NCBI GenBank assembly: GCA_963663225.1
Contig: OY760142.1
Coordinates: 195,913 to 259,912 of the forward strand
Source of the DNA: Nitrospirota bacterium
Lineage (GTDB): Bacteria > Nitrospirota > UBA9217
Direction of reading: 5' to 3'
DNA: 64,000 nt
Shown: piece by piece, positions 36,175 through 56,906 of the stretch
How the letters are laid out: every line of letters begins with the position of its first letter
How positions within the stretch are numbered: position 1 is the stretch's first letter
Notes under the pieces: generated by a model
Told to the model about the DNA's origin: nothing
The model's input: the letters and a program-made list of their open reading frames with translations, nothing else
Database searches by the model: none
Translations under genes and position numbers: made by a program

Positions 36175-37485
36175 TTAAAATATCTGTCTGAATTCGAGAA
36201 TGAACCGATTGTTCGAGTAATTGTTCGCCATAATGTCATACGAATGGCTGTTTGCAAACCGATATTCAAAAGACAGGGTCGCCTTCTCAGATAATTGTTG
36301 GTCAAGTCGAAGTGTTGAAAGAACGATTTTCGTTACGCCGCCGGTAGCGGTTGTATCGTTTACATCCTGATAGCCGGCCCCCAGTGTACCGGTTGTAAGT
36401 GTAGCAAAACGGTATAGTGCCGACCCCTGTACTTGCTGGGTTCTGGACAACCGCTGATTCGACAGAGCGTCACGATATTCATTCCATCCTCCTGAAAGGG
36501 TGACAACGGCCCTCGGCCAGGTATTTGAAATGCTGGCAGTATACTGGTCATCCAGCGTAACAAGACGCACCGGATCCTGAACAACATACCTGCGCGCACC
36601 CAAAGCGAATGTCAGGGTTGATATCCGATGGTTCAGACCTCCGTCCCAGAACCAGTAATCCTTTCTTGGATGATTTTGGTTGGGGTCCGCTTTCGGCTCA
36701 AAATCGAACCAGGTTTTGCCGCCCCGGGCGAAAATATAGGCATTTTCTGCGTACGCATACTGTGGTCCGGCGTATACGTCAACCTGGGTATAATTTGAAA
36801 TGTGGTTGAAATCATGCGTATATCGCGCTCCTGCGGTAAATGTCATGCGTGAAGAAAGATTGATCCCCAGGTCGCCGTATGCAATATGTTCCAGGTGGTT
36901 GACGGTTTCAGCCTGGCTTGCGACGCTGCCGTTGAGGTAGCGAACATCCTGGAAAATGTATCCGAATACAGTCCGCGAGTTCGTAGAGGGTCGGAGAATG
37001 AGATACGGATTAACCGCAAATATGTTTTGATCAACCTGGTTGGCGGTGGGACTCTGCTGCGTGTAATCGATGCTGACGTTTTGAGATACCCTGCTGTAGT
37101 CGTCCCGCACTTCAACATACAGATAGTCCTGAATAAGTTCAGTCCGGTTTCTCAGAAAAAGCAGATGAGAATAGTCGTTCTGGATACGGTGCCGGGTATA
37201 ATAGTAATAGCTGTACGTATAGTTCAGGTCCCAGTCCCAGAAGGAAGTTGTATATTTTAATCGAATTGACGGGGATAGTCTGGTGATAAAGGACTCGATT
37301 TTATTTTCATCGCGTTGCAGAAAAACGTTGTCATTATACTCTTCACTCACCATAATAGAAGGCTCAATCCTGAACACGGCGCCTTCTGTTTCCAGCGCAA
37401 AGCAGGTAAGCATAAAAACAATGGCCGCAGCAACAAGTCCTGATATTCGCAAGGAAGCCCCCCTTCGGGAAAGTATATGGATCAT
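36175..37485 (-). CDS. outer-membrane beta-barrel protein (PEP-CTERM/EPS-locus-associated type)
   Basis: 436 aa ORF; N-terminal signal peptide; alternating-hydrophobic, Tyr/Asn-rich body; C-terminal residues FRQIF ending in Phe, as in OM beta-barrels. Confidence 0.65.
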   Translation of the reverse strand: MIHILSRRGASLRISGLVAAAIVFMLTCFALETEGAVFRIEPSIMVSEEYNDNVFLQRDENKIESFITRLSPSIRLKYTTSFWDWDLNYTYSYYYYTRHRIQNDYSHLLFLRNRTELIQDYLYVEVRDDYSRVSQNVSIDYTQQSPTANQVDQNIFAVNPYLILRPSTNSRTVFGYIFQDVRYLNGSVASQAETVNHLEHIAYGDLGINLSSRMTFTAGARYTHDFNHISNYTQVDVYAGPQYAYAENAYIFARGGKTWFDFEPKADPNQNHPRKDYWFWDGGLNHRISTLTFALGARRYVVQDPVRLVTLDDQYTASISNTWPRAVVTLSGGWNEYRDALSNQRLSRTQQVQGSALYRFATLTTGTLGAGYQDVNDTTATGGVTKIVLSTLRLDQQLSEKATLSFEYRFANSHSYDIMANNYSNNRFILEFRQIF

Positions 37486-38432
37486 TTTTTTCCTGTCCTA
37501 TTCAAAATAGTATCCAGCCAGGTCTTAATCTTTTGAATTGCCGTATTAATCGTTTTTTCCGTCTGATCCATCAGTTTAGCAGCTTTGAGCGCTCCGGCCT
37601 GTTCCACTGCCGAAGAGCGGTCATAGTACGGCATCCCCTGCGATGAAAGATAGTGTGGAACATTATTGAAGACTGTCCCGAATACATGGGTGTCATTCAG
37701 GAGTGCCAGCGCCTGCCCTGCTGATTTCACCGGCGTCCGGCCGGCTTGAACCACGAAAATAGCTCCATCTATGTACTCCTTTAAATACAGGGCTTCAGCG
37801 GTGGTCAGAAGCGGAGAAGAGTCAAAGATAATATACCGGTCACGGTATCGGTATTTCATTTCCCGCACAAGGTCTTTCATTTTTTCGGATGCGAGAAGCT
37901 CGGACGGATTGCTCGGCGGATTGCCGGCAGGCAGCAATACCAGTTTGCCGATTCCCGTTTTGATAAGGATATCGGAAAGCTGCACCTTTGCCTGCAGATA
38001 ATCGCTCAGACCGTACTGCGGGGTTATGCCGAGATAGGTATGAATCGACGGCTGGCGAAGGTCCGTATCGATCAGGAGGACGGTATGATCGATTTCCTGC
38101 GCCATCGTAATAGCCAGATTGATCGCGGTGACTGTTTTCCCTTCTCCCGCAAGTGCGCTGGTAACAAGGAGACTGTTCAGAAAATCTTTTTCCGTGCTTT
38201 TAAAAATTCTTGCCCGCAGCTTTTTGTATTCCTCCGCGGAAGGGGCGGTCGGATCGGTTATGCAAACGATATGTTTATTAACGGCAGTGGGGTCGATTAT
38301 GGATTCTCCCACCTCGAAAACCGGCGTCGAGCTCTGCCGCTCTCGTGCCACACTTATCGTCGATGATGATTCTCTTCCGCCCTGCCTCAACTGCGCAGCT
38401 TTTTCCAATGCTTTCTCTATTCTGCTCATCAC
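37482..38432 (-). CDS. BY-kinase catalytic protein (Wzc C-terminal-domain-like tyrosine autokinase, CpsD type)
   Basis: 316 aa ORF; Walker A SALAGEGKTV, Walker A' VLLIDTDLRQP, Walker B YIIFDSSP; Tyr pair near the C-terminus (PYYDRSS). Confidence 0.8.
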   Translation of the reverse strand: MMSRIEKALEKAAQLRQGGRESSSTISVARERQSSTPVFEVGESIIDPTAVNKHIVCITDPTAPSAEEYKKLRARIFKSTEKDFLNSLLVTSALAGEGKTVTAINLAITMAQEIDHTVLLIDTDLRQPSIHTYLGITPQYGLSDYLQAKVQLSDILIKTGIGKLVLLPAGNPPSNPSELLASEKMKDLVREMKYRYRDRYIIFDSSPLLTTAEALYLKEYIDGAIFVVQAGRTPVKSAGQALALLNDTHVFGTVFNNVPHYLSSQGMPYYDRSSAVEQAGALKAAKLMDQTEKTINTAIQKIKTWLDTILNRTGKK

Positions 38433-38449
38433 AGGTCTCCCGTGTATGG

Positions 38450-40012
38450 TTATAGGATCCGTACTCCTAAGATCTGACTAATAACTTCCTCAAGCAAAAC
38501 CAAACCGACAATGCCGAGATAGATGGCAGCGGCTTTATAATATTTTCTGTCGAGCAGCCGCGATGCCGCCCGGTCCTCTTCCGTTTCAATTTGCGGCACA
38601 GTCGCCAAAAGGGGAAGCTTGAGGCCGTTTTCAAGCAAATCTTCATTTTTAAAGGTTGGATCTAAATAATCGAGCGCAACCACCGAAGCAATACCCGCGA
38701 TTATTCCCAAAAACAGTCCAACCAGGATCATTTTTACCCTATTCGGGAAAATTGGTAGATGCGGTTCGACAGGCGGATCCATAATCTTGAAGGTAGAATT
38801 TTGCCCCAGTTCCAGATCTCTTGATACCCTCGCGCTTTCCAACTTGATCAAAAGATCGTCATAAATTCTCTGATAAACAGCTCGATTGCGTTGCAGTTTC
38901 GTCCATTCCTCCTGCTCTTTCGGCATCTTTCTGAGAAGTGACTGCCCCTCCTGCTGCTGTTTCGTCAGTTCTCCCTGGCGCGCGCGCAGTGTCTCAATTT
39001 CCGTCTCGGTCCTGGCCAACTCTTCCCGCAACTGCTGGTAAACCGGATTGACAGCCGCAGTCTCTGTTCCGGCACCTTCATGTCGCTGTGTAGAAGCCAT
39101 TGCAATCTGTTTTTTCAACTCCTCAATTTCATTCTTAACTTTTATTACTTCCGGATAATCCTCGGTATATTTCGTCGTCAAGAGGATGAGTTGATTGTTC
39201 AACTGGCTTAACCGTGCCTGCGGTGATCCTTCTCGGGTAACAAAGGCAACGGTCAGCTCTTTTTCACCCGAAAGCTGTTTTTTGAGGCTTTCCCGTTTCT
39301 TTTCCAGTTCACGAAGTTTGATTTCCGCATCGATTTTTCCGGATTGGAAGGTTTCGATTCTGCTGACTACCGTATTTTCGCTCTGCGGCACCAGCGTCGG
39401 ATGCTGCTCCCTGAACTCCCGTATAAGCTTATCGGAGGCATCAAGTTTCTCCCGGTATTCATTCAATTCTTTTTCGATAAAACTGAATGCTCCGTAAACA
39501 TCCTGCGTCCGGGAGCTTTCGTTTATCGCTATGCATTCGCTGATGTGGGTATTCACCAGGCTGGTCACTTTTTTCGGATCACCGCCGCGATACGCAATTG
39601 AAAAATAGAGGTCAGATGCTGTAGCTCCACCGCTCCGGACGGTAACCGTAAGGCTTTTTCGCATTCCTTCAATCAGGCTTTCGTATTGAGTCGGATTGCT
39701 GATTTTGTCGTCGAGATTGAGCTTTTTAATGACGCGTTCAATAAGGCTTCTGCTGGTTAAAATATTTCTCAGGTTTCTCAGCCGCTCTTCCAGGCTTACC
39801 GTGACACCCACGCCCTGCATCAGGGGGTTGATCAGAGATGTGCCCTGGATGTACACCGTGGCGTTTGCTTCGTATGTCTTGGGCATAAGGAAACCGCCCC
39901 AGGTAAAGACGGATATCACGATAAGCGCCACAGCAATCGCCAGATATCTTCTTTTGTACAGGATGCCGAGATAATACTTAAAATCAATTTTAAAGGCGCC
40001 GTTTTCTTCCAT
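38450..40012 (-). CDS. polysaccharide co-polymerase / chain-length determinant protein (Wzz/GumC-like)
   Basis: 520 aa ORF; TM helix near the N-terminus, long charged coiled-coil periplasmic region, C-terminal TM helix. Confidence 0.75.
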   Translation of the reverse strand: MEENGAFKIDFKYYLGILYKRRYLAIAVALIVISVFTWGGFLMPKTYEANATVYIQGTSLINPLMQGVGVTVSLEERLRNLRNILTSRSLIERVIKKLNLDDKISNPTQYESLIEGMRKSLTVTVRSGGATASDLYFSIAYRGGDPKKVTSLVNTHISECIAINESSRTQDVYGAFSFIEKELNEYREKLDASDKLIREFREQHPTLVPQSENTVVSRIETFQSGKIDAEIKLRELEKKRESLKKQLSGEKELTVAFVTREGSPQARLSQLNNQLILLTTKYTEDYPEVIKVKNEIEELKKQIAMASTQRHEGAGTETAAVNPVYQQLREELARTETEIETLRARQGELTKQQQEGQSLLRKMPKEQEEWTKLQRNRAVYQRIYDDLLIKLESARVSRDLELGQNSTFKIMDPPVEPHLPIFPNRVKMILVGLFLGIIAGIASVVALDYLDPTFKNEDLLENGLKLPLLATVPQIETEEDRAASRLLDRKYYKAAAIYLGIVGLVLLEEVISQILGVRIL

Positions 40013-40021
40013 GCAACCCTC

Positions 40022-40918
40022 CTAAAACCAGCTTGTCTTGACCGTAACCACATCACCAGGCCGTAAGGTGAAATTTTTGCCTATGTCTCCGTTCATGACA
40101 TCTTTTATTTTTACTTTATGATTCTGAACCGCATCGCCTTCCTTTCGGGAGACAAGAACGTTGTTTTTGCTTGCGAACTCGGTAAAACCTCCCGCAGCCA
40201 GTATAGCGTCAAGAGCCGTCATGCCTTCGCTATAAGGGATAATGCCCGGCGTCCTGACCGCACCGGTCACTCGAATGCGGTTGCTGAACCCTCCTGGGAG
40301 ATAAATGATATCATTCGGTTCAAGCTTTACATCCTGGGAGTAATCGCCTTTTCCCACCAGTTGCTCAAAACTGACGGCAACTTTTTTCCCGGCTCTCAGC
40401 AAATAGGCATTGGGTAAATCAATGTTGCTGACTGATCCCAACTGTGCAAGAAGCTGCAGCAGCGTTGTATTTCTTCTGAGTGTAATCTGTCCGGAAGCTG
40501 CTCCACCGGCTCCGGCAGCGGCGCTGGCTGTTTGTCCGGCTGTGTCTGACAGCAACGCATTTGATCGGGAGACGCCGTCTCCGAAAACATACACTTTAAA
40601 ACTATTAATTGCCGTCACCGTGATGCTGACGACCGGCGCTTTTACATACCGCAGGAGCTCTTTTTCAATGACTTTTTTCAATTCAAGGGGGGTTTTGCCT
40701 TCCGCCTTGATGTCGCCGACAAGAGGCATTGAGACCATTCCATCCGGTCTTACCGGAACATGAACACTCAATTCATTGTTTCCCCATACTGATATCTGCA
40801 GCATGTCTTCCGCACCGATGACGTATCCTTCCGCATGAGCTGTTTTCATGTTCAGAGACAGCAGCGTCATTAAAAAAACCGATAAAACGGCCAAGACCAT
40901 CTTGTACGTTGATCTCAT
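40022..40918 (-). CDS. polysaccharide export protein (Wza-like)
   Basis: Start at internal ATG (MRSTYKMVLAVL) preceded by GGGGGG RBS; signal peptide; Poly_export-like region PVRPDGMVSMPLVGDIKAEGKTPLEL. Confidence 0.75.
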   Translation of the reverse strand: MRSTYKMVLAVLSVFLMTLLSLNMKTAHAEGYVIGAEDMLQISVWGNNELSVHVPVRPDGMVSMPLVGDIKAEGKTPLELKKVIEKELLRYVKAPVVSITVTAINSFKVYVFGDGVSRSNALLSDTAGQTASAAAGAGGAASGQITLRRNTTLLQLLAQLGSVSNIDLPNAYLLRAGKKVAVSFEQLVGKGDYSQDVKLEPNDIIYLPGGFSNRIRVTGAVRTPGIIPYSEGMTALDAILAAGGFTEFASKNNVLVSRKEGDAVQNHKVKIKDVMNGDIGKNFTLRPGDVVTVKTSWF

Positions 40919-41113
40919 AATTTCCCCCCGCAATTTTTTCGCAGAATAGCACCGCATTTTTGCAATGCTCCGCCCTCTCAGTCACAGACACGTGCCGGAG
41001 GGATAAAAAACCATTGTTTACATCCACTTCTTGCACAGCATCAGCTCCAAAAAACATTGTTCCGTGTTTGGTCGCTGATTTTTACGATCGAACGGCGAGC
41101 ATTCAATTGTTTG

Positions 41114-41767
41114 TCAACACAATGATTCTACTTCCTGGGCTGCCACTCGTATGGAAACGCTTCTGCCGAGCAGTTCTACAGTAACCTGGAACAGATATTC
41201 GTTTTCTTTCCGGATCAGAATGCCTTCTGCATTTTTGAGCGGGCCGTTTTTAATCCGGATCCGGGTCCCCTGTTTCAAGTGCGGATAGACATCCAGCTCT
41301 TTGCCGCTCTCGACGAGAAGCCGTAAGGAATCTATCTCTTCGGGAGCAACCGGTGTCGGCTTGCCGGGTTCCAGCGAGATGAAAGTCACAACCCCTCGTG
41401 TCCTCAGCACGTCTAGGAACGCCTCAGGTCCGGGACTAATTTTCACGAAAAGGTATCCTGGAAACAGTGGATATTTGACGATCTTTTTTCTGTCTTTCCA
41501 CTGGCTGACCCGCTTTGCAGCAGGCAGAAATGCTTCCAGATTTTTTTCAGTCAGTTCATCCAGAACAACGAATTCATGCCGCGATTTTACATGAACGGCA
41601 TACCAGCATACCGTCTGCTCTGCCGGCGATTGTCGACTAAAATGAGATTCCGAAAACACTATAGACCGTGCCAGTTCACATTGATTCATGAGTTCCACGT
41701 TTCCTTTTATTTCCGTATTCCCGATTTTCCAGTCCATGCAGGCGACAGGAAAGGACTTACCGATCAC
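41114..41767 (-). CDS. NusG-paralog transcription antiterminator (UpxY/LoaP/RfaH-like)
   Basis: NGN-domain motif CWYAVHVKSRHEFVV...YPLFPGYLFVK and C-terminal KOW-like GTRIRIKNGPLKNAEGIL. True start uncertain; candidate Met codons at 41767, 41737 and 41689. Confidence 0.7.
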   Translation of the reverse strand: MIGKSFPVACMDWKIGNTEIKGNVELMNQCELARSIVFSESHFSRQSPAEQTVCWYAVHVKSRHEFVVLDELTEKNLEAFLPAAKRVSQWKDRKKIVKYPLFPGYLFVKISPGPEAFLDVLRTRGVVTFISLEPGKPTPVAPEEIDSLRLLVESGKELDVYPHLKQGTRIRIKNGPLKNAEGILIRKENEYLFQVTVELLGRSVSIRVAAQEVESLC

Positions 41768-41791
41768 CGTTTAGGCAAAACATGCATAATT

Positions 41792-42688
41792 TTATTCCGG
41801 ATCCTGTATCCCCAGAGCATGAAGAAGAGCGGAATAATCGATACTTTTTCTCACACCCTGATCATGAGAACCCCAATAGAGCGTTTCAAAGTCGAGGTCC
41901 TTTACGATATCCCGGACCATAGCGGGGTCAACCTCTTTCGTTTCTTCAATAAAAGCGGTCAACAGCAGGAAGTCACACATGATGTTTACCAGCCGTGGGA
42001 CTCCCTTTGTGTACTGGTAAATAAGATCAATGCTCCCATCGGAAAACGTTACGGCGTCTCTGTTGCCAGCCACTTCATGACGGTGCAGAATATACTCTAG
42101 CGTCTCTTCTTTTGTCAGCGGGCTGATCCGGCAATTGATGCTGATGCGCTGACGAAGTTGACGCAGCTGCGGTAGGGCAAGAACATCCCTCAGTTCAGGC
42201 TGGCCGACGAGAACAATTTGCAGCAGTTTCGAGGTGCTGGTCTCCAGATTTGACAGCATCCTGATTTCTTCCAGCAGATCAGGCTTTAGGTTCTGCGCCT
42301 CATCAATAATAAGAACCGGATTAAAGCGCCTCGCATGCTGTTCTATCAGAAAATCATTCAGGTCTTTGAACAGCGTGACTTTGTCCTTTCCTTGCACTGC
42401 AAGCCCGAAATCATCATTGATCATAGCGATCAACTGTTCGGAAGTAACTTTTGTGTTAAAAATCTTAGCGAGAGTGACATTGCCTGCCAGTCTTTTAATA
42501 AGATCGCTGATAAGCGTCGTTTTACCTGAGCCGACTTCTCCCGTCAGGAGTATAAAGCCCGCCTTTTCCCGTATTCCATATTGCAGATAGTGAATCGCCC
42601 GTTTATGGGTTCTGCTCATGTACAGGAAATCAGGGTTCGGTATAAGCTCAAACGGTTTTGTTTTAAAATTAAAAAATGCTTCATACAT
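41792..42688 (-). CDS. ExeA-like AAA ATPase (secretion-ATPase type found in PEP-CTERM/EPS loci)
   Basis: 298 aa ORF; Walker A LLTGEVGSGKTTL and Walker B LIIDEAQNL. Confidence 0.75.
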   Translation of the reverse strand: MYEAFFNFKTKPFELIPNPDFLYMSRTHKRAIHYLQYGIREKAGFILLTGEVGSGKTTLISDLIKRLAGNVTLAKIFNTKVTSEQLIAMINDDFGLAVQGKDKVTLFKDLNDFLIEQHARRFNPVLIIDEAQNLKPDLLEEIRMLSNLETSTSKLLQIVLVGQPELRDVLALPQLRQLRQRISINCRISPLTKEETLEYILHRHEVAGNRDAVTFSDGSIDLIYQYTKGVPRLVNIMCDFLLLTAFIEETKEVDPAMVRDIVKDLDFETLYWGSHDQGVRKSIDYSALLHALGIQDPE

Positions 42689-42777
42689 AGAATTGCTGTC
42701 CTTCCTGCACAGGTTTCTAGGGAACCGCTGCCGTAGTGCCTCCTGCCGGTAGCGCTCTAACTAACCTGTTGCCTGCT

Positions 42778-43200
42778 TCATATTTCTACTCTTATTTCCG
42801 GCTTCGCTGCATTGCTGACCAGAGCTGATTCAGCACCGCTTTTACAGTTTTCCATGATTTGATTTACGAGATCCCGGAATTTCGTATAATCAAGCGGCTT
42901 TATCATACAATGCAGCAGTGATTTGTCCACGTTATCGAGCATGATTGCCAAATCTCGGTTCAGCCGGTCAGAAAGGATGATGACCGGAAGTTTTGTTTTA
43001 ACAAGCTCTGCCAGTACGACTGCCCCATATGGATAGCTTGTTATGACGAGACCGAAATCTTCGCAGTTCAGTATTGATGTGATGCTTTGAAGATCGCTGG
43101 TAACAATAGTGGAATACTTTTCTTTTTCCAGTATTGCCGAGCAGATACGTGCAAATCTTGCTTCATCAATTATTAATATCTTCTTTGTTTGGATTTCCAT
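42778..43200 (-). CDS. stand-alone receiver-like domain protein lacking the canonical phospho-acceptor Asp (atypical or pseudo-receiver)
   Basis: 140 aa ORF; beta1 KILIIDEA, conserved Ser/Thr (PVIILSD) and Lys (IKPLD) positions present, but the expected Asp after beta3 is Thr/Ser (GLVITSYP). Confidence 0.55.
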   Translation of the reverse strand: MEIQTKKILIIDEARFARICSAILEKEKYSTIVTSDLQSITSILNCEDFGLVITSYPYGAVVLAELVKTKLPVIILSDRLNRDLAIMLDNVDKSLLHCMIKPLDYTKFRDLVNQIMENCKSGAESALVSNAAKPEIRVEI

Positions 43201-43333
43201 GGCAATAATACTAATAGCAAATTCAATGCCTGAGATAAAAGTCCAATTATTAAGGCAGTTTCAATTTAAAAAATCAGCTTTCCAGAAATTTGTTTCTCAA
43301 GTATACACATTTCAAAAAAAGTCGTTGTTTTCG

Positions 43334-43352
43334 GTTGTATCCAATGGATACA
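43334..43352. promoter_or_regulatory. perfect 19-bp palindrome in the divergent EPS/glmS promoter region; candidate dimeric regulator binding site
   Basis: TTGTATCCA-A-TGGATACAA read directly from the sequence, within the 498-bp AT-rich intergenic region 43201-43698. Confidence 0.35.
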
Positions 43353-43698
43353 AAATTGACAACGTATTGGAAACTAACAATTTATATTTTATAACTGTTT
43401 CTTTTAGAAACACATTTTGGTGTGCGGTTATCTCGTTTTCCTATTATTTTATTGCCGACAGCATTTTTTTTGGGCATTTTTTTACACAGGTGGCTATGAA
43501 AACATCCTTTTTTTCACGGTCCTTCAGCAGAACCATTCTTGCAATCCTTTATAAAACAATGAATTTCTCCATCCATTTTCGTTAAGAAAGAAACTGATTT
43601 TTTGAGCATGTTTTTTGCTAGTTACTATTCTCAAAAAGTACGCATTTCTGCAGGGCAAAGACTCAAAGCAAGTTTTTATCAAGAGGAGGCTTTGGTTT

Positions 43699-45528
43699 AT
43701 GTGTGGTATTGTCGGATACGTTGGTAAAACTGGTTCTCTCCAGGTGCTCGTTGACGGACTTAAGCGACTTGAATACCGGGGATATGATTCAGCAGGCATA
43801 GCTTTTGTCAACGGGAATGGCCTTGAAGTGTGCAAAACCAAGGGGAAACTCAAGGATCTTCAGCGTATGCTCCCCGATCCTGCTCCTGCAGTACGAATGG
43901 GGCTTGGCCATACACGCTGGGCCACCCACGGTGGTCCTTCATCGGTCAATGCACATCCACACCGTGTTGAAGGCATTGCCGTAGTGCATAATGGAATTAT
44001 AGAAAACTACAGGGAATTGAAGACAACTTTGGAAAGCGAAGGGCATACTTTTCTCTCTGAAACAGACACTGAGGTTGTGCCGCAACTGATTGCAAAATAT
44101 ATGAACAAAGGCCTTCCGATCAGGGAAGCAATTCGGTCAGCCGTTGCTCAGCTGCACGGTTCTTATGCGCTTGGTATCATCAGCGAGCAGCATCCCAATA
44201 CCCTTTTTGCAGTAAGAAAAGGAAGCCCGCTCGTTCTTGGAATCGGCACGGATGATTTTTACTTCGCTTCCGACATTCCGGCAATCCTTCCTTACACCCG
44301 CAAATTCATATTCATGGAAGACGGACAGCTGTGCACCCTCACCGGGGAAGGAATGGATATTCGACTTGTTGAATCCGATGCCGTTGTCTCCAATTTAGGC
44401 AAGGTAATAGAGATCGACTGGACGTCCGATATGGCCGAAAAAGACGGCTATGATCACTTCATGCACAAGGAAATATACGAGCAACCCCGTGCAATCACTG
44501 CGACAATCAGCGAACGCCTACAAAGTCCTCTTAACTTTCTTTCCGAGCTTGGAATCTACGTCCAAAGAAAATCGGATGTAAAAAAGCTGCACATCGTTTC
44601 CTGCGGCACGTCGTATCACGCGGCGCTCGTCGGGAAATATATGATTGAAAATATTGTTCGCATTCCGGTAAGCGTTGATATCGCCTCGGAATATCGCTAT
44701 CGGCAGCCCATCATTGAGAAGGGTACGCTTTTTGTTGCAATCACTCAATCGGGGGAAACAGCTGATACGCTTGCGGCTCAGCGCGAAGCGAAACGTCTTG
44801 GAGCATTGACGCTCACCATCTGCAATGTCGTGGGAAGCACATCAACACGCGAAGCTGATTCGGTTCTTTACACCCGATCAGGGCCGGAAATCGGTGTCGC
44901 ATCTACGAAAACATTTACTTCGCAGATGGCGGCATTATGTGTTTTGGCTCTTGCCATGGGGTTCAAAAAATCCACGATTTCTCAGGCAGAATATGACGCG
45001 CTGAAGTCTCATCTTATTGAAATTCCCGCGCTCATAGAGAAGACATTGCAATCGGATGCAAAAATCAAGGAGCTTGCAAAAACCCTCGCGCAGGCAAAGG
45101 ATTTTTTGTATCTCGCGCGGGGAATAAACTATCCACTTGCTCTCGAAGGGGCCTTAAAATTAAAGGAAATTTCTTATATACACGCCGAGGGGTATCCGGC
45201 AGGCGAAATGAAACATGGTCCCATAGCTCTCATCGACCAGAATCTGCCGGTTGTTGTGGTCGCCTCCTCAAATGATCTTTTTGAAAAGATATTCTCCAAC
45301 ATAGAAGAAGTGAAAGCCCGGGGAGGACGGGTTGTTGCAATAACTGATATCCCCGAGGCGATGAAGGGAAAGGCTGATGATGTCATAACCGTACCATCAA
45401 CCCATCCGCTGCTTACTCCCTTTGTTAACGTAATCCCTCTCCAGCTCCTTGCATACCATATCGGCGTGCTGAGAAACTGCGATGTGGATCAGCCACGAAA
45501 CCTTGCGAAAAGCGTGACGGTTGAATAA
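43699..45528 (+). CDS. glmS: glutamine--fructose-6-phosphate aminotransferase (isomerising)
   Basis: Start ATG at 43699 preceded by AGAGGAGG RBS; N-terminal MCGIVGYVG nucleophile; two SIS domains; characteristic C-terminus AKSVTVE. Confidence 0.95.
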   Translation: MCGIVGYVGKTGSLQVLVDGLKRLEYRGYDSAGIAFVNGNGLEVCKTKGKLKDLQRMLPDPAPAVRMGLGHTRWATHGGPSSVNAHPHRVEGIAVVHNGIIENYRELKTTLESEGHTFLSETDTEVVPQLIAKYMNKGLPIREAIRSAVAQLHGSYALGIISEQHPNTLFAVRKGSPLVLGIGTDDFYFASDIPAILPYTRKFIFMEDGQLCTLTGEGMDIRLVESDAVVSNLGKVIEIDWTSDMAEKDGYDHFMHKEIYEQPRAITATISERLQSPLNFLSELGIYVQRKSDVKKLHIVSCGTSYHAALVGKYMIENIVRIPVSVDIASEYRYRQPIIEKGTLFVAITQSGETADTLAAQREAKRLGALTLTICNVVGSTSTREADSVLYTRSGPEIGVASTKTFTSQMAALCVLALAMGFKKSTISQAEYDALKSHLIEIPALIEKTLQSDAKIKELAKTLAQAKDFLYLARGINYPLALEGALKLKEISYIHAEGYPAGEMKHGPIALIDQNLPVVVVASSNDLFEKIFSNIEEVKARGGRVVAITDIPEAMKGKADDVITVPSTHPLLTPFVNVIPLQLLAYHIGVLRNCDVDQPRNLAKSVTVE

Positions 45529-51921: not shown

Positions 51922-53241
51922 TTAGAGCTGATGTTTGTAGGATTTCACGAACGCACTCATACGATCGCGAGCGTCGAATACGCGTTTGCGCAGGTCTTTT
52001 GCATACTGATCCAAGTCAAGTTTAACCGTGGCAACGCCTTCATCCATGGCTGCCTTGGCAACCGCAACCGGCTCGAGGTCGATCAGACGGGTATCAAGCG
52101 CCTTCGGGATGATGTAGTCCAGACCATAGGTCAGCGACTTCACATTATACGCATCACAAACTTCCTGCGGTACCGGCTTTTTGGCCAGGTCAGCGATAGC
52201 TTGCGCTGCAGCTTTCTTCATATTTTCGGTGATTGCAGTTGCGCCGCAGTCCAGAGCTCCGCGGAAGATATAGGGGAACCCGGAAACGTTGTTCACCTGG
52301 TTCGGGAAGTCAGAACGGCCCGTTCCCATGATCAGGTCCGGACGAGCTGCCTTTGCATCGGGATACGGAATTTCCGGATCAGGGTTCGCCATGGCGAACA
52401 TGATCGGATTTTTGGCCATGCTCTTAACCATTGCAGGAGATACAAGGTTCGCCTGCGAAAGGCCGAGGAACATGTCTGCGCCCTTGAATGCTTCTTCAAG
52501 CGATGAGAAAGCCTTTTTCTGGGCAAACAGCTTTTTGTACTCGTTGAGGTCGGTACGACCCGCATGAATATGGCCTTTGGTGTCGAACAGGGAGATGTTT
52601 TCCTGAGGAACACCGAGCAAAACATAGAATTTGCAGCAGGCAATACCGGCAGCACCGGCGCCCGAGCAGACCACTCTCATGTCAGAGGCTTTCTTGCCTG
52701 AAATATCGATGGCATTGATCAAGCCTGCACCGGAGATGATCGCCGTACCATGCTGGTCATCATGGAATACCGGTATTTTCATGATCTTTTTCAGTTTTTC
52801 TTCAATATAGAAGCAATCGGGTGCGCCGATGTCTTCGAGATTGATGCCGCCAAAAGTCGGCTCTAATGCCTTCACAATTTCAATGATTTTATCCGGATCC
52901 TTGACATCAAGATTGATATCATAGGAATCAATGTCCGAGAAAATCTTGAACAAGATTCCCTTGCCTTCCATGACCGGCTTTGCAGCTGCTGGGCCGAGGT
53001 TTCCAAGTCCCAGGATGGCGGTACCGTTGGTGACAATTGCCACCAGGTTGCCCTTACCTGTGTACTTGTAAACATCTGCGGGATTTGCCGCAATTGCGCG
53101 GCAAGCGTCAGCAACACCTGGCGAGTAGGCCGTTGCCAGATCCTTCTGGGTAAAGTAGGGCTTTGTCGGAATGACTGTGCATTTCCCCGGAGGAAACACA
53201 TTATGATACTTCAATGCTTCTTCTTTCGTTACCAGTGCCAT
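51922..53241 (-). CDS. malic enzyme (NAD(P)-dependent malate dehydrogenase, decarboxylating; short type without PTA domain)
   Basis: 439 aa ORF; AAGGAGG RBS; malic-enzyme N-terminus [13 protein letters not shown] and dinucleotide-binding [12 protein letters not shown]. Confidence 0.9.
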
Positions 53242-53364: not shown

Positions 53365-53380
53365 AGCAAGGAACATGCCA
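53365..53380 (-). promoter_or_regulatory. sigma-54 (-24/-12) promoter upstream of the malic enzyme gene
   Basis: Minus-strand reading TGGCATG-TTCC-TTGCT versus consensus TGGCACG-N4-TTGCW (11 of 12 positions, correct GG-N10-GC spacing), about 124 nt upstream of the ATG and adjacent to a sigma-54 activator gene. Confidence 0.5.
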
Positions 53381-53673: not shown

Positions 53674-55098
53674 TTATTCTTCGCTCGAAGTTTCCTGCTG
53701 CTGTTTAAGGCGCTTGCTCAGCGCTGGCTGCGATATGCCCAAAAATCGGCTTGCCACAGACTGATTCCCTCTCGCACGCTTCATGGCTTCCGCAATGAGA
53801 AGCCCCACGGTCTGCTGAATGGAAGGCAGAGTTTCCACACTTTCGAAGATATTCGCGGAATCAGCATGAAAACGCGAAGGGGTCCGGTCATGTGAAGCAC
53901 TTATCTTTTTAAATTGTTTGGTTGAAACAGTGCCCGAGGCGGACTGAGCAACGGCGTCGAACACCATCGAACGCAGTTCCCGGATATTGCCCGGGAAATT
54001 ATACTGTTCAAGAAGCGGGACCAGATCAAAGGCATAATTCAGCTTGTCCTTTCCGAGAGAACGGGCCGCTTCCTCCAGAAAATAATCGAGCAGCAGCGGG
54101 ATGTCTTCCTTTCGATCGCGAAGCGGAGGCAGGTGTATATGGTGCGTGTGCAAACGGAAAAAAAGGTCCTTTCGCAATTCTCCCCGCGCCTGTTTTTCAG
54201 TAAGGTTCTGGTTCGTGGAAGCGATAACGCGCGCATTCAACCGTTTCGGCCTGTCGCTGCCTAAGGGAAAGTAATCTCCCTCCTGAAGAAGACGCAGAAG
54301 CTTCACCTGCGATGCATTGTTCAGGTCGCCTATTTCGTCCAAAAAAAGAGTCCCCAGGGCCGCCTGTTCCACCATGCCGCTTCTCGGCTGGTCCGCGCCG
54401 GTAAAGGCGCCTTTTACGTGTCCAAACAAGGTATCGGTAAACATGGCATCATCAAGTCCTCCCACATTCACCGATACCAGCGAACCCTTGCAGCCGCTTA
54501 AGGTATGGACTGCATTGACGATGAGCCCTTTTCCCACGCCGCTTTCACCCGTAACCAGCAGCGGCTGGCTGCTTTTGGCTACCGCTTCCACGTATTGGAA
54601 AATCGTTTTCATCGTTTTATTCAGCGTAATGATGCCTTCAAACGCGTGGGGATCCCGGAGTGAATCCGACAGAAAACTCCTGGTCATCTCGCGGTTCTCC
54701 GAACGCATTTCTATGATTTTTATCGCATGCTGGATTGCGGTAATAATCCGGCATTCTTCGGCAGTCTTGACCATATAATCGAAAGCGCCGTGTTTCATGC
54801 AGGTGACCGCGGTCTCGAGCTGGCTTATGCCGCTGCAGACAATCACTATTATCTCGGGGAACTGTTCGTTTATCAGTTTCAGAAGTTCTTCTCCCGAGAG
54901 GTTGGGCATCGTGAGATCCAGCAGCACAATGCCGATCTCCTGCTGGGCCAGTATCTCTAAAACATCACGGCTGTCCTGGCAGGACATCACATTGGTGATG
55001 CCTGCATGCCTCTCAAGGGACATGCGCATGGATCGGATCCATGCCTGCTCATCATCCACGATCAGGATGCGAAATGACGGATACCCTGCTGCACTCAT
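53674..55098 (-). CDS. sigma-54-dependent response regulator (NtrC family: receiver + AAA+ sigma-54 activation domain + HTH)
   Basis: Start placed at ATG forming an ATGA overlap with the kinase stop; receiver ILIVDDE...LLDLTMP; Walker A GESGVGKG; GAFTGA motif; C-terminal HTH (RARGNQSVASRFLGISQPALSKRLK). Confidence 0.85.
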   Translation of the reverse strand: MSAAGYPSFRILIVDDEQAWIRSMRMSLERHAGITNVMSCQDSRDVLEILAQQEIGIVLLDLTMPNLSGEELLKLINEQFPEIIVIVCSGISQLETAVTCMKHGAFDYMVKTAEECRIITAIQHAIKIIEMRSENREMTRSFLSDSLRDPHAFEGIITLNKTMKTIFQYVEAVAKSSQPLLVTGESGVGKGLIVNAVHTLSGCKGSLVSVNVGGLDDAMFTDTLFGHVKGAFTGADQPRSGMVEQAALGTLFLDEIGDLNNASQVKLLRLLQEGDYFPLGSDRPKRLNARVIASTNQNLTEKQARGELRKDLFFRLHTHHIHLPPLRDRKEDIPLLLDYFLEEAARSLGKDKLNYAFDLVPLLEQYNFPGNIRELRSMVFDAVAQSASGTVSTKQFKKISASHDRTPSRFHADSANIFESVETLPSIQQTVGLLIAEAMKRARGNQSVASRFLGISQPALSKRLKQQQETSSEE

Positions 55099-56906
55099 GC
55101 CTGAACCTCCCATTCTGCCACAGGCAGTTTGATAATTACGGTTGCTCCCTCGCCGGGCTTGGAATTAAAACTGAGCGTTCCCCCATGCTCCTTCACAATT
55201 CCCGCGGAGATCGCAAGCCCGAGACCCGTTCCGCCGCTGTCCCTCTTGGTGGTAAAAAAGGGATCGGTCACGCGGTTCAGATGTTCCGGCGGAATGCCGA
55301 TTCCATCGTCGTGCACCCTGATGATAATCGTCCCGACTTCACGCTCATATGAGGTCATGACAAATATCCCTTTGTCGACAAACGGCAAGCCGGGAAACGA
55401 GCTCATAATATCTACCGAAGGCTGTGGCGTGCGCTCCGGCTTCTGCCGGTTGGCGCTCTCAACGGCCTGCGCCGCATTCAACACAAGGTTTACAATCACC
55501 TGTTCGAGCCGGTGCGGATTGCCCTTGATCAAAGGAAGCGGTTCCGTGCAATAAACAGCGCAGTGGATGGCCGAGCTTTTCAACGAGTGTTCCAGCAGCC
55601 GGACGGAAGTCCGCACCACATTGTTCACGTCGAACAGCTCCTTGGAATTGGAATCGTTTTTCCGCGAAAAGTGCTTGAGATCGTCGACAATGCGCTTGAT
55701 GCGCTTTACCGCAACCTGCATCTCGTCAAGAAGCTGGGGAAGTTCCTTGCGCATCCGTGAATACGGCAGACCACCCATTAAAAATTCCCCGTGTTCACGG
55801 TAATAAGCATCAAGAATCGGGTCGGCATCTTTGATGACCTCGCTGACCAGCGGCAAATTAAAAAGAAGCAGACCGTTCGGATTGTTGATTTCATGGGCCA
55901 CGCTCGAGACAAGAACACCCAGGGCAGCCATCTTATCGGCCTGGATCAACCGCTGGTGCTGAAGCCTCAGCTCTTCATCCATGCGTTTGCGTTCTTCCAC
56001 CTCGCGGTTCAGGGCAGCGGTCCTGGCGGCAACCCGCATCTTCAGCAGTCTGGACCAAATAATGGACGCAAGAAGGCCGAAAATAAGCGCGGAAACAATG
56101 TACATGTTGTATTTTTTCAGCCATTTCCAGGAAGCATACTCTGTATCCACATTTCCCAGCCATTTTTCCTGCAGTTCCTGATACCGGCCCGTCTCTTTGA
56201 GAAATGCCAGCCCTTCATTGAATTTTTCCAATGTAGCCAGGTTCCCTTTTCTGAAGGCAAAGCAGTACTTGCTGGTATCGATATTCTTGGCAACCAGTTC
56301 TACGTTTGTGATCTTTAAATCGGTAATCAGATATGTTGCCTGAAGCGTTTCCAGCACGGCATAGTCATGTTTAGCCGAGGCAAGCATCTTCACTGCCTCC
56401 GCAATGGACGAAACAGTGACTATCTGAATTTGGCTCCATGCCGCCCGGGAGTAATCGTGTTTTCCATCCAGGCTCACAAGAACGACTTTCTTTCCGCGGA
56501 GATCATCAAGGGATGAAACCGGAGATGCGTCTGTTCTGGCGAAGATGGAATGAGAAATTGCGGAATGCGGCGAAGAAAGGTCCAGGATATGCGCCCGTTC
56601 TTCCGAAAAGGGAAGGCCTTCGATAACATCAATACGGCCGGTTTCCACATCCCTGAATATCGTGGACCATGATTTTTCCAGCTTAAACGTGACTTCAACG
56701 TCCATGGTCTCGGCTATGGCTTTTGTCAACTCCACAATGAAACCGGCGGGCTTGCCATCTCTGTCAATGAACTCATACGGTGGATGGGCGCTGTTGCCGC
56801 CTACAACGATCATGTGTTTGGAGTTATCGGTGTTCTCCGCGGCCAGAGTCTGAGCATGGAGAGCTGGTAATAACAGCAGCAGACAGATGAAGGCTCTCAC
56901 CATCAT
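55095..56906 (-). CDS. sensor histidine kinase with N-terminal periplasmic solute-binding (SBP type 3-like) domain
   Basis: 603 aa ORF; signal peptide; periplasmic domain about 230 aa; one TM helix; HisKA H-box (LVSSVAHEINNP); HATPase motifs (HDDGIGIP, GGTGLGLAI). Confidence 0.8.
   Translation of the reverse strand: MMVRAFICLLLLLPALHAQTLAAENTDNSKHMIVVGGNSAHPPYEFIDRDGKPAGFIVELTKAIAETMDVEVTFKLEKSWSTIFRDVETGRIDVIEGLPFSEERAHILDLSSPHSAISHSIFARTDASPVSSLDDLRGKKVVLVSLDGKHDYSRAAWSQIQIVTVSSIAEAVKMLASAKHDYAVLETLQATYLITDLKITNVELVAKNIDTSKYCFAFRKGNLATLEKFNEGLAFLKETGRYQELQEKWLGNVDTEYASWKWLKKYNMYIVSALIFGLLASIIWSRLLKMRVAARTAALNREVEERKRMDEELRLQHQRLIQADKMAALGVLVSSVAHEINNPNGLLLFNLPLVSEVIKDADPILDAYYREHGEFLMGGLPYSRMRKELPQLLDEMQVAVKRIKRIVDDLKHFSRKNDSNSKELFDVNNVVRTSVRLLEHSLKSSAIHCAVYCTEPLPLIKGNPHRLEQVIVNLVLNAAQAVESANRQKPERTPQPSVDIMSSFPGLPFVDKGIFVMTSYEREVGTIIIRVHDDGIGIPPEHLNRVTDPFFTTKRDSGGTGLGLAISAGIVKEHGGTLSFNSKPGEGATVIIKLPVAEWEVQA

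What the first reader, a model, noticed from the sequence alone, without database searches (positions are those of the whole stretch)
42778..43200. First gene of the EPS operon is a receiver-like protein lacking the phospho-acceptor aspartate
The 140 aa protein keeps the acidic pair after beta1 and the conserved Ser and Lys positions, but the canonical Asp after beta3 is replaced (GLVITSYP). It is probably a phosphorylation-independent pseudo-receiver acting through protein-protein interaction, placed where it could couple locus expression to a regulator.
Basis: seen in the sequence. Interest (0 to 1): 0.4.

Follow-up and report, generated by a model that had tools for sequence, protein, structure and literature searches.

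The report
Aspartate-less receiver heading a PEP-CTERM operon
The first gene of this exopolysaccharide (XrtA/PEP-CTERM) operon encodes a small CheY-like protein in which an invariant serine replaces the phosphorylated aspartate; it belongs to a small uncharacterised family that always sits just behind a sigma-54 promoter with three enhancer boxes, and most likely tunes the two-component system that switches the locus on.

Summary
ORF 42778-43200 (-) encodes a 140-aa protein with a confident (beta-alpha)5 receiver fold. It keeps D12-E13, S77 (T site) and K101-P102 (K site). The phospho-acceptor column holds Ser55, which is never Asp in about 170 relatives.

The beta3-alpha3 loop is 4 residues shorter than in CheY. 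The T+1 residue is a conserved Asp, and the Tyr/Phe switch residue is a conserved Cys. Aspartyl phosphorylation is therefore excluded.

The family is small: about 80 clusters at 50% identity, in Nitrospirota and a few Geobacter (e.g. Gmet_2033). It has no dedicated Pfam or NCBIfam model and is mis-annotated as a DNA-binding regulator.

New here:
- 47 of 54 related loci carry a sigma-54 -24/-12 element upstream of the gene; in the loci measured it ends 12-17 nt before the ATG (predicted near-leaderless mRNA).
- 41 of 42 loci have two or three TGTWTCC-N3-GGAWACA palindromes upstream, like Haft's PEP-CTERM box.
- In about 20 loci the gene lies between a histidine kinase/NtrC-type activator pair and PrsT. 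In the window it precedes the XrtA-associated ATPase and a UpxY-type NusG paralog.

The best reading, which is inferred, is a phosphorylation-independent feedback modulator of that kinase/activator pair, analogous to FixT and Osp. It is a new member of a known kind, of moderate interest.

The parts
42778..43200 (-). CDS of the 140-aa stand-alone aspartate-less receiver (called RECl here)
   Evidence: ORF. Receiver fold. Profile-profile probability 99.8% to canonical receivers. 305 homologs.
43036..43038 (-). Codon AGC = Ser55, occupying the phospho-acceptor (CheY D57) position
   Evidence: Ser in 173 of 178 aligned sequences; the 4 sequences with Asp look like canonical NtrC-type receivers, judging by the matching residue counts at four other columns.
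43162..43167 (-). Codons GAT GAA = D12-E13, the acidic pair after beta1
   Evidence: Read from the sequence. D 175/178 and E 173/178.
42967..42972 (-). Codons for S77 (T site) and D78 (T+1, family-specific Asp)
   Evidence: S/T at 77 in most members but variable. D78 in 173/178.
42895..42909 (-). Codons for C98 (at the Tyr/Phe switch position) through K101-P102 (K site)
   Evidence: C98 in 171/178, K101 in 177/178.
43216..43231 (-). Sigma-54-type -24/-12 element aGGCATtgaatTTGCT, 15 nt before the ATG
   Evidence: The strict motif is found upstream of 47 of 54 related genes, against a background of 0.1 per kb. In the loci measured the spacing to the ATG is mostly 12-17 nt.
43291..43307 (.). Proximal enhancer-like palindrome (12 of 14 consensus positions of TGTWTCC-N3-GGAWACA)
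43336..43352 (.). Central enhancer-like palindrome TGTATCCA-T-TGGATACA (14 of 14)
43396..43412 (.). Distal enhancer-like palindrome (12 of 14)
41792..42688 (-). XrtA/PEP-CTERM system-associated ATPase (TIGR03015), second gene
   Evidence: 399.9 bits, cutoff 324.5.
41114..41767 (-). UpxY-family NusG paralog (antiterminator), third gene; the true start is probably internal
   Evidence: NF033644 127.6 bits (cutoff 100); the match begins at residue 55.
36175..40957 (-). XrtA-system export protein, chain-length determinant, tyrosine autokinase and TIGR03016 outer membrane protein
43699..45528 (+). Divergent glmS; this neighbour recurs in many related loci

Best explanation
The gene encodes a stand-alone, aspartate-less pseudo-receiver: a CheY fold with Ser55 at the phospho-acceptor site. 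It cannot be phosphorylated on aspartate.

It is the promoter-proximal product of a sigma-54 promoter fitted with three PEP-CTERM-box-like enhancer palindromes. It is therefore made whenever the PrsR-like NtrC-family activator fires.

The most likely role is a phosphorylation-independent feedback modulator of that kinase/activator pair. It would dock either on the histidine kinase (through the alpha1 face) or on the activator's own receiver domain (through the alpha4-beta5-alpha5 face). This would set the gain or duration of expression of the XrtA/PEP-CTERM exopolysaccharide locus.

Shown: the fold, the Asp-to-Ser replacement, family conservation, the conserved promoter and enhancer sequence motifs, and the gene neighbourhoods.

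Inferred: that the motifs are used by sigma-54 and the neighbouring activator, the partner, and the sign of the feedback.
For: Identity as a pseudo-receiver.

The pocket is not built for phosphoryl chemistry:
- There is no Asp at the acceptor site.
- The beta3-alpha3 loop is 4 residues shorter than in CheY.
- The T site varies across the family.
- T+1 is a conserved Asp where canonical receivers have Ala or Gly.

Strong purifying selection:
- 42-47% identity between the window protein and the Geobacter/Desulfuromonadales copies.
- More than 30 invariant positions.

Regulon membership:
- The sigma-54 motif lies upstream of 47 of 54 family genes.
- 2-3 palindromes sit at fixed offsets in 41 of 42 loci. 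95 of the 131 matches found in 457 kb of loci lie in these 13.4 kb.
- In the window, the only cluster of these palindromes is in front of this gene.
- The layout (17-nt box, about 61-nt spacer, sigma-54 motif) matches the PEP-CTERM box described by Haft et al. 2006 (PMC1569441).

Link to a two-component system:
- In about 20 loci the order is HK, then NtrC-type EBP, then this gene, followed in about 13 of them by PrsT.
- The adjacent EBP receiver domains score 25-44 bits against the family HMM. That equals the best canonical receivers in a 1.84-billion-protein library (36-47 bits). PDB receivers reach only about 20 bits. This suggests the family arose from that receiver.

Precedent: the single-domain receiver-like proteins FixT and Osp are induced by the system they inhibit and bind the kinase directly (PMC7078487, PMC9430884).
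Against: - No interaction was or could be tested.
- In the window and its closest relatives no kinase or activator is adjacent. The neighbours are the ATPase and the NusG paralog.
- Similarity to the activator's receiver may reflect ancestry only.
- The transcription start, sigma-54 dependence and activator binding are inferred from motifs, not measured.
- The invariant D12, E13, D78 and K101, together with Ser55, could mean the pocket still binds a ligand or is modified. That would make 'phosphorylation-independent' too strong.
Confidence: 0.45

Rival explanations
1. Adaptor for the operon's own cytoplasmic proteins. The pseudo-receiver binds the UpxY-type NusG paralog and/or the TIGR03015 ATPase and controls antitermination or assembly of the export machinery.
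For: - In the window and about 20 close relatives the order is pseudo-receiver, ATPase, NusG paralog.
- In L003, L004 and L021 it is followed directly by the NusG paralog with no ATPase.
- A NusG paralog lies within 4 kb in most loci.
Against: - In 22 loci the next gene is instead PrsT, a predicted lipoprotein (Haft 2006). PrsT is therefore not a cytoplasmic partner.
- Many loci have neither an ATPase nor a NusG paralog within 4 kb.
- The only invariant neighbour is the promoter.
Confidence: 0.2
2. A serine-phosphorylated receiver. Ser55 (or Thr54) receives a phosphoryl group from the neighbouring histidine kinase or from a Ser/Thr kinase. This would give a long-lived switch that uses the retained D12/E13/K101 pocket.
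For: - Ser55 is invariant, and D12, E13 and K101 are nearly invariant, although Asp is gone.
- Ser is the third most common replacement in aspartate-less receivers, and it has been flagged as potentially phosphorylatable (PMC4395418).
- From my own knowledge: CheY D57N was reported to be phosphorylated on Ser56 by CheA (Appleby and Bourret 1999).
Against: - The T site is variable, and the beta3-alpha3 loop that supplies a metal ligand is truncated.
- A few members have Asn or Ala at position 55.
- No Ser/Thr kinase gene is consistently nearby.
Confidence: 0.1
3. A redox- or metal-sensing pseudo-receiver. The conserved Cys20 (alpha1) and Cys98 (switch position) sense oxidants or bind a metal or Fe-S cluster, as in RitR or FixT, and gate its interaction.
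For: - C20 and C98 are each present in 171 of 178 sequences.
- C98 replaces the Tyr/Phe switch residue.
- Cys-based sensing is documented for RitR and for the Fe-S-binding FixT.
Against: - There are only two conserved Cys per chain.
- By general receiver topology they lie on alpha1 and beta5 and are probably too far apart for an intramolecular disulfide. No coordinates were available to measure this.
- Both may simply be core residues.
Confidence: 0.1
4. A non-functional remnant: the N-terminal fragment of a frameshifted NtrC-type regulator, or a decaying duplicate.
For: Databases call members 'DNA-binding NtrC family response regulator'.
Against: - Length is a uniform 120-145 aa across about 300 homologs.
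- No AAA+ or HTH coding sequence lies downstream.
- The signature is strongly conserved across two phyla.
- The gene has its own conserved promoter.
Confidence: 0.02

Closest known systems
Canonical CheY-like receiver domains (Pfam PF00072)
   Same: (beta-alpha)5 fold. Acidic pair after beta1, Ser at the T site, and Lys-Pro at the K site. Best structural matches are CheY, PhoP, ArcA and DivK.
   Different: The phospho-acceptor Asp is replaced by an invariant Ser. The beta3-alpha3 loop is 4 residues shorter. T+1 is Asp instead of Ala/Gly. The switch Tyr/Phe is Cys. The score is below Pfam's gathering threshold.
Aspartate-less receivers / pseudo-receivers (Maule et al. 2015, PMC4395418; J Bacteriol 2025 review, PMC12632262)
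   Same: It fits the definition exactly: a receiver fold lacking the D residue. Ser is the third most common replacement.
   Different: This is a discrete family of about 80 clusters, not individually described. It is stand-alone and keeps DD and K. It is tied to one gene system and one promoter type.
FixT (Caulobacter/Sinorhizobium) and Osp (Rhodobacter): single-domain receiver-like feedback inhibitors of histidine kinases
   Same: Small stand-alone receiver-fold proteins whose genes are induced by the two-component system they act on. Phosphorylation is not needed (Osp D51N is functional). They bind the kinase directly.
   Different: No specific sequence relationship was tested. Osp lacks DD and K but keeps D, which is the opposite pattern. 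FixT binds an Fe-S cluster through 4 Cys. For the present family, binding to a kinase is only inferred.
PrsK/PrsR/PrsT regulatory module and the PEP-CTERM box (Haft et al. 2006, PMC1569441)
   Same: The same gene system (XrtA/PEP-CTERM EPS loci). The same promoter layout: a 17-nt upstream box, often repeated, then a spacer of about 60 nt, then a sigma-54 -24/-12 element. PrsT and an NtrC-type activator are adjacent in many loci.
   Different: The pseudo-receiver is an additional component not listed in that work. The box half-site is TGTWTCC rather than ending in TTTACA. The neighbouring kinase is short (about 337 aa), and the activator scores below the PrsR cutoff (387.5 against 502.6 bits). 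Haft found the box only in Proteobacteria; here it is in Nitrospirota and Geobacter.

Membership tests
CheY-like receiver domain (PF00072) | (beta-alpha)5 flavodoxin-like fold | tested here: met
   AF2 model with pLDDT 81 and the correct order of elements. Foldseek PDB hits to receivers at probability 1.0.
CheY-like receiver domain (PF00072) | Score at or above Pfam's gathering threshold | tested here: not met
   19.2 bits against a cutoff of 30.2, although the match is full length. Only 2 of the 120 listed homologs carry a precomputed PF00072 hit.
CheY-like receiver domain (PF00072) | Phospho-acceptor Asp at the end of beta3 | tested here: not met
   Ser55 occupies the column where canonical receivers have Asp.
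CheY-like receiver domain (PF00072) | Acidic pair after beta1, Ser/Thr after beta4, Lys after beta5 | tested here: met
   D12-E13, S77 and K101-P102. The T site is variable among relatives.
Pseudo-receiver / aspartate-less receiver class | Recognisable receiver fold lacking at least the D residue | tested here: met
   Definition taken from PMC12632262.
PrsR (TIGR02915, PEP-CTERM-box response regulator transcription factor) | Receiver plus sigma-54-interaction AAA+ domain plus Fis-type HTH, about 445 aa | tested here: not met
   The protein is 140 aa with only a receiver-like domain. No NCBIfam hit is significant.
Kinase-inhibiting single-domain receiver-like proteins (FixT/Osp type) | Direct binding to and inhibition of the cognate histidine kinase; gene induced by the same system | not testable with these tools
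   Only the second half is supported indirectly, by the enhancer and sigma-54 promoter upstream and the adjacent kinase/activator genes.
XrtA/PEP-CTERM system-associated gene | Consistent co-location with XrtA/PEP-CTERM marker genes | tested here: met
   In the window the gene is followed by TIGR03015, TIGR03027, TIGR03007, TIGR03018 and TIGR03016 proteins. PrsT (TIGR02917) is confirmed in L026 and L043, and PrsT homologs lie next to the gene in 22 loci.

The most novel reading that the evidence does not exclude
The invariant Ser55, sitting in a pocket that still keeps the acidic pair and the Lys, is a genuine phospho-acceptor. The neighbouring histidine kinase (or another kinase) would transfer phosphate to serine inside a receiver fold. 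This would create a hydrolysis-resistant 'latched' receiver that records past activation of the PEP-CTERM regulatory system.
Probability: 0.08. Interest if true: 0.8.

Novelty: new member of a known kind. Interest (0 to 1): 0.42.

Why it matters
Pseudo-receivers make up several percent of all receiver domains, yet how bacterial ones are controlled is largely unknown (PMC12632262). This family offers a clean test case for four reasons:
- It is a single domain with a sharply defined signature.
- It is always expressed from the same enhancer-dependent promoter.
- It is often encoded next to a candidate kinase/activator pair.
- It has an ortholog in a genetically tractable organism (Geobacter metallireducens Gmet_2033).

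It also adds a previously unlisted component and a Nitrospirota/Geobacter version of the PEP-CTERM box to the regulatory model of exosortase-linked exopolysaccharide and floc formation. That model has so far rested on PrsK, PrsR, PrsT and RpoN.

Tried and rejected
- Rfam scan of the whole window (to look for a glmS ribozyme or a leader RNA): no family reached threshold.
- Sigma-70 promoter and terminator scan around the gene: counts were no higher than in shuffles.
- The repeat tool found no inverted repeats, because the arms are only 8-9 nt. My own scripts found them.
- Single-sequence and family-profile searches against PDB sequences gave weak hits only (E about 1e-3). They gave three different registers for the D site, so they were not used to assign it.
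- The first hhalign run used a 'canonical' template set that turned out to contain 11 family members (seen). It was discarded and redone cleanly, with the same Ser55-D57 assignment.
- The window-wide count of loose sigma-54 matches is not enriched (24 against 33 expected). The case for the promoter rests on cross-locus conservation, not on that count.
- Literature searches for Gmet_2032, Gmet_2033, Gmet_2034 and GSU1986-1989 found nothing beyond Haft 2006.
- A frameshifted-regulator explanation was rejected because of the uniform length and the downstream genes.
- PrsT was rejected as a direct partner because it is a predicted lipoprotein.
- No coordinates of the model were available, so the Cys20-Cys98 distance and a possible D78-K101 salt bridge could not be measured.

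Full report
**1. The observation**

The minus-strand ORF 42778..43200 starts with ATG and encodes 140 aa: MEIQTKKILIIDEARF...GLVITSYPYG...VIILSDR...HCMIKPLDY....

Pfam's Response_reg model aligns end to end (residues 8-111 to profile positions 1-109 of 111). It scores only 19.2 bits against a gathering threshold of 30.2. NCBIfam has no model for it. Sequence alone is therefore borderline, and I tested the fold independently.

- An AlphaFold2 model built on 35 relatives has mean pLDDT 81. Its elements run E7-11, H14-26, E31-34, H37-46, E49-56, H60-68, E73-77, H82-90, E96-100, H105-128.
- Foldseek against the PDB returns only receiver domains at the top: CheY, PhoP, ArcA, DivK, RR468. Probability is 1.0 and TM-scores are 0.6-0.79.

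The C-terminal 18 or so residues are predicted disordered and are not conserved.

**2. Which residue sits at the phospho-acceptor site**

Single-sequence and family-profile hits to PDB sequences are weak. They put I53, T54 or S55 opposite the Asp, depending on the target. Three better tests agree on Ser55.

- BLASTP against an NtrC-type regulator encoded next to a relative aligns VITS with IITD.
- A profile-profile alignment of the family against 77 canonical receivers plus CheY and Spo0F has probability 99.8% and E 3.7e-30. It aligns FGLVITSY--P--YG with YGFVISDWNMPNMDG. This gives T54/S56, S55/D57, S77/T87, D78/A88, C98/Y106 and K101-P102/K109-P110. An earlier run was discarded because its template set was contaminated with family members, as one search revealed.
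- When about 60 canonical receivers from a 1.84-billion-protein library are aligned to the family HMM, their 'TD' falls on the family's 'TS' column.

No acidic residue occurs in residues 49-60 in any register. Spo0F was copied.

**3. Family signature**

There are 305 homologs at E <= 1e-3 in the 90%-clustered database. In the 50%-clustered library 79 representatives have E <= 1e-10, and there is a clear drop to canonical receivers below about 50 bits.

Counts over 178 aligned sequences:

| Position | Count |
|---|---|
| D12 | 175 |
| E13 | 173 |
| C20 | 171 |
| T54 | 167 |
| S55 | 173 |
| Y56 | 171 |
| P57 | 173 |
| S77 | 151 (T in 13) |
| D78 | 173 |
| C98 | 171 |
| K101 | 177 |
| P102 | 176 |
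| D104 | 176 |
| Y105 | 176 |

Four sequences have D at position 55. They appear to be canonical NtrC-type receivers that passed the HMM threshold, because four sequences also carry A16, L20, A78 and Y98.

In more distant representatives the T site is often Ala, Leu, Tyr or Phe, and position 55 is occasionally Asn or Ala. It is never Asp.

Compared with canonical receivers:
- the beta3-alpha3 loop is 4 residues shorter;
- the beta1-alpha1 loop is 1 residue shorter;
- the T+1 residue is Asp rather than Ala/Gly;
- the aromatic switch residue is Cys.

Together these argue that the pocket no longer performs aspartyl-phosphate chemistry. The refinement is that the replacing residue is Ser55, and that the 'conserved Ser' (S77) is not invariant family-wide.

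**4. Context in the window**

Downstream on the same strand lie, in order:
- a TIGR03015 XrtA/PEP-CTERM-associated ATPase (399.9 bits);
- a UpxY-family NusG paralog (127.6 bits);
- the XrtA-system export protein, chain-length determinant, tyrosine autokinase and TIGR03016 outer-membrane protein;
- about 35 kb of sugar-modifying and exosortase-A-associated genes.

The upstream neighbour glmS is divergent. The gene is therefore the first of a very long minus-strand gene array. No minus-strand terminator-like site was found in the 40900-43800 stretch scanned.

**5. Distribution and neighbourhoods elsewhere**

A scan of one genome per species found 52 loci. Almost all are Nitrospirota MAGs, plus a few Geobacter/Desulfuromonadales, including the isolate G. 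hydrogenophilus. The G. metallireducens ortholog is Gmet_2033. It is annotated 'hypothetical', 'response receiver' or 'response regulator transcription factor', and it lies next to PrsT Gmet_2032.

Close relatives (about 55% identity or more) repeat the window's order: pseudo-receiver, ATPase, NusG paralog, export. In three fetched loci (two places) the NusG paralog follows directly.

In about 20 more distant loci the order is a histidine kinase (about 337 aa), then an NtrC-type sigma-54 activator, then the pseudo-receiver; about 13 of these continue with PrsT. PrsT is confirmed by TIGR02917 at 643-684 bits. The activator scores 387.5 bits on the PrsR model, below the cutoff of 502.6.

Intermediate arrangements link the two layouts. 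L011 has pseudo-receiver, PrsT, ATPase. L046 has pseudo-receiver, PrsT, NusG paralog.

**6. A conserved promoter**

Immediately upstream of the window's ATG lies aGGCATtgaatTTGCT (43216-43231, minus strand), two mismatches from TGGCAC-N5-TTGCW. The window-wide count of such loose matches is not enriched.

A strict version (GG[CT]A[CT]-N5-TTG[CT][AT]) is found within 150 nt upstream of 47 of 54 family genes. The background is 0.1 per kb per strand, and that figure includes these sites.

Further upstream are 17-bp palindromes of the form TGTWTCC-N3-GGAWACA.
- 41 of 42 loci have one to three of them.
- In the window's subgroup they start about 183, 123 and 78 nt upstream of the sigma-54 motif.
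- 95 of the 131 matches found in 457 kb of fetched DNA lie in the 13.4 kb upstream of these genes.

In the window the three sites (43291-43307, 43336-43352, 43396-43412) form the only cluster. Shuffled sequence gives 0.76 matches per window.

The layout is a 17-nt box, often repeated, then a spacer of about 61 nt, then the sigma-54 motif. This mirrors the 'PEP-CTERM box' that Haft et al. found in front of PEP-CTERM genes in Proteobacteria, where the spacer was 62.8 +/- 10.6 nt. They attributed that box to PrsR. The half-site differs here.

Sigma-54 and activator usage are inferred from motifs and from established promoter geometry. They were not measured.

**7. Predicted leaderless message**

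In nearly all of the 39 loci measured the first in-frame ATG begins 12-17 nt after the TTGCW, with no Shine-Dalgarno sequence. The two loci with 26- and 39-nt spacing do carry GGAGG-like sequences.

With the usual sigma-54 start about 11-12 nt after the GC, the 5' UTR would be about 1-7 nt.

**8. Mechanism**

Aspartyl phosphorylation is excluded, and the protein has no output domain. It must therefore act by binding something.

The only universal neighbour is the enhancer-dependent promoter. The next most frequent are the kinase/activator pair (cytoplasmic) and PrsT, which is a predicted lipoprotein and so an unlikely partner.

The adjacent activators' receiver domains score 25-44 bits against the family HMM. 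That equals the best canonical receivers in the whole representative library (36-47 bits). PDB receivers reach about 20 bits. Alpha1 and the beta5-alpha5 region are visibly alike between the two: SAIL.EEGY and IKP.DY.K.

This suggests descent from that receiver, with possible retention of its docking surfaces.

My preferred model is a feedback modulator that binds the kinase or the activator's receiver. Documented parallels are FixT and Osp, which are single-domain receiver-like proteins induced by the system whose kinase they inhibit. My confidence is about 0.95 that it is an aspartate-less pseudo-receiver, and about 0.35-0.4 for the partner and the feedback role. I give the explanation as a whole 0.45.

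The rivals are:
- serine phosphorylation at Ser55;
- Cys-based redox or metal sensing;
- a decaying gene fragment, which is effectively excluded.

**9. Novelty**

Aspartate-less receivers are a recognised class. They make up about 4% of receivers, and Ser is the third most common replacement. The kind is therefore known.

This particular family has no dedicated Pfam or NCBIfam model and no literature that I could find. Its tie to the PEP-CTERM regulatory module and its promoter architecture appear undescribed.

I rate it a new member of a known kind, of moderate interest.

Noticed in passing
window 43291-43412 and 43216-43231; related loci L001-L058 upstream of the homologous gene: Three 17-bp palindromes TGTWTCC-N3-GGAWACA lie about 61 nt upstream of a sigma-54 -24/-12 element. 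The layout is conserved from Nitrospirota to Geobacter. It looks like a lineage-specific version of Haft's PEP-CTERM box, which was previously reported only in Proteobacteria.
   Followed up: yes
window 43198-43231 (-); 39 related loci: The start codon lies 12-17 nt after the -12 element and no Shine-Dalgarno sequence is present. This predicts a leaderless or near-leaderless sigma-54 transcript. The two loci with longer spacing (L058, L046) do have GGAGG-like sequences.
   Followed up: partly
window 43699-45528 (+); L005-L008, L017, L019, L022-L027, L030, L031, L034, L038, L052, L053, L058: glmS (the first step towards UDP-GlcNAc) is the divergent upstream neighbour of the cassette in many loci. 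It lies either next to the pseudo-receiver or next to the kinase/activator pair. This may reflect coordinated precursor supply.
   Followed up: no
window 53365-53380 (-), between 53674-55113 (-) and 51922-53241 (-): The best sigma-54 consensus match in the window (TGGCATgttccTTGCT, 1 mismatch) lies between a second NtrC-type activator, which has a sensor kinase with a periplasmic binding domain, and a malic-enzyme gene. This appears to be an unrelated sigma-54 regulon.
   Followed up: no
L043 768-1145 (G. hydrogenophilus); cluster with Gmet_2033; P0003, P0012 etc.: Family members of about 125 aa are annotated in public databases as 'DNA-binding response regulator', 'NtrC family' or 'response regulator transcription factor', although they have no DNA-binding or AAA+ domain.
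   Followed up: yes
L020 and L021 (same contig, about 15 kb apart); L025 and L050 (same MAG): Some genomes carry two copies of the pseudo-receiver, each with its own sigma-54 promoter. One copy (L003/L021) is followed directly by a NusG paralog and then a transposase and lipid/polyketide-type genes instead of EPS export genes.
   Followed up: partly
P0202, P0204, P0207, P0225, P0244: A second, more distant set of stand-alone proteins of about 130 aa also has Thr-Ser at the D-1/D positions (TSMP). It lacks the Cys20/Asp78/Cys98 signature and may be a separate Ser-type aspartate-less receiver family.
   Followed up: no
window 41114-41767 (-): The NusG-paralog ORF as listed starts at a GTG 54 codons before the region that matches NusG/UpxY profiles. 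The real start is probably internal, which would lengthen the gap after the ATPase gene.
   Followed up: no
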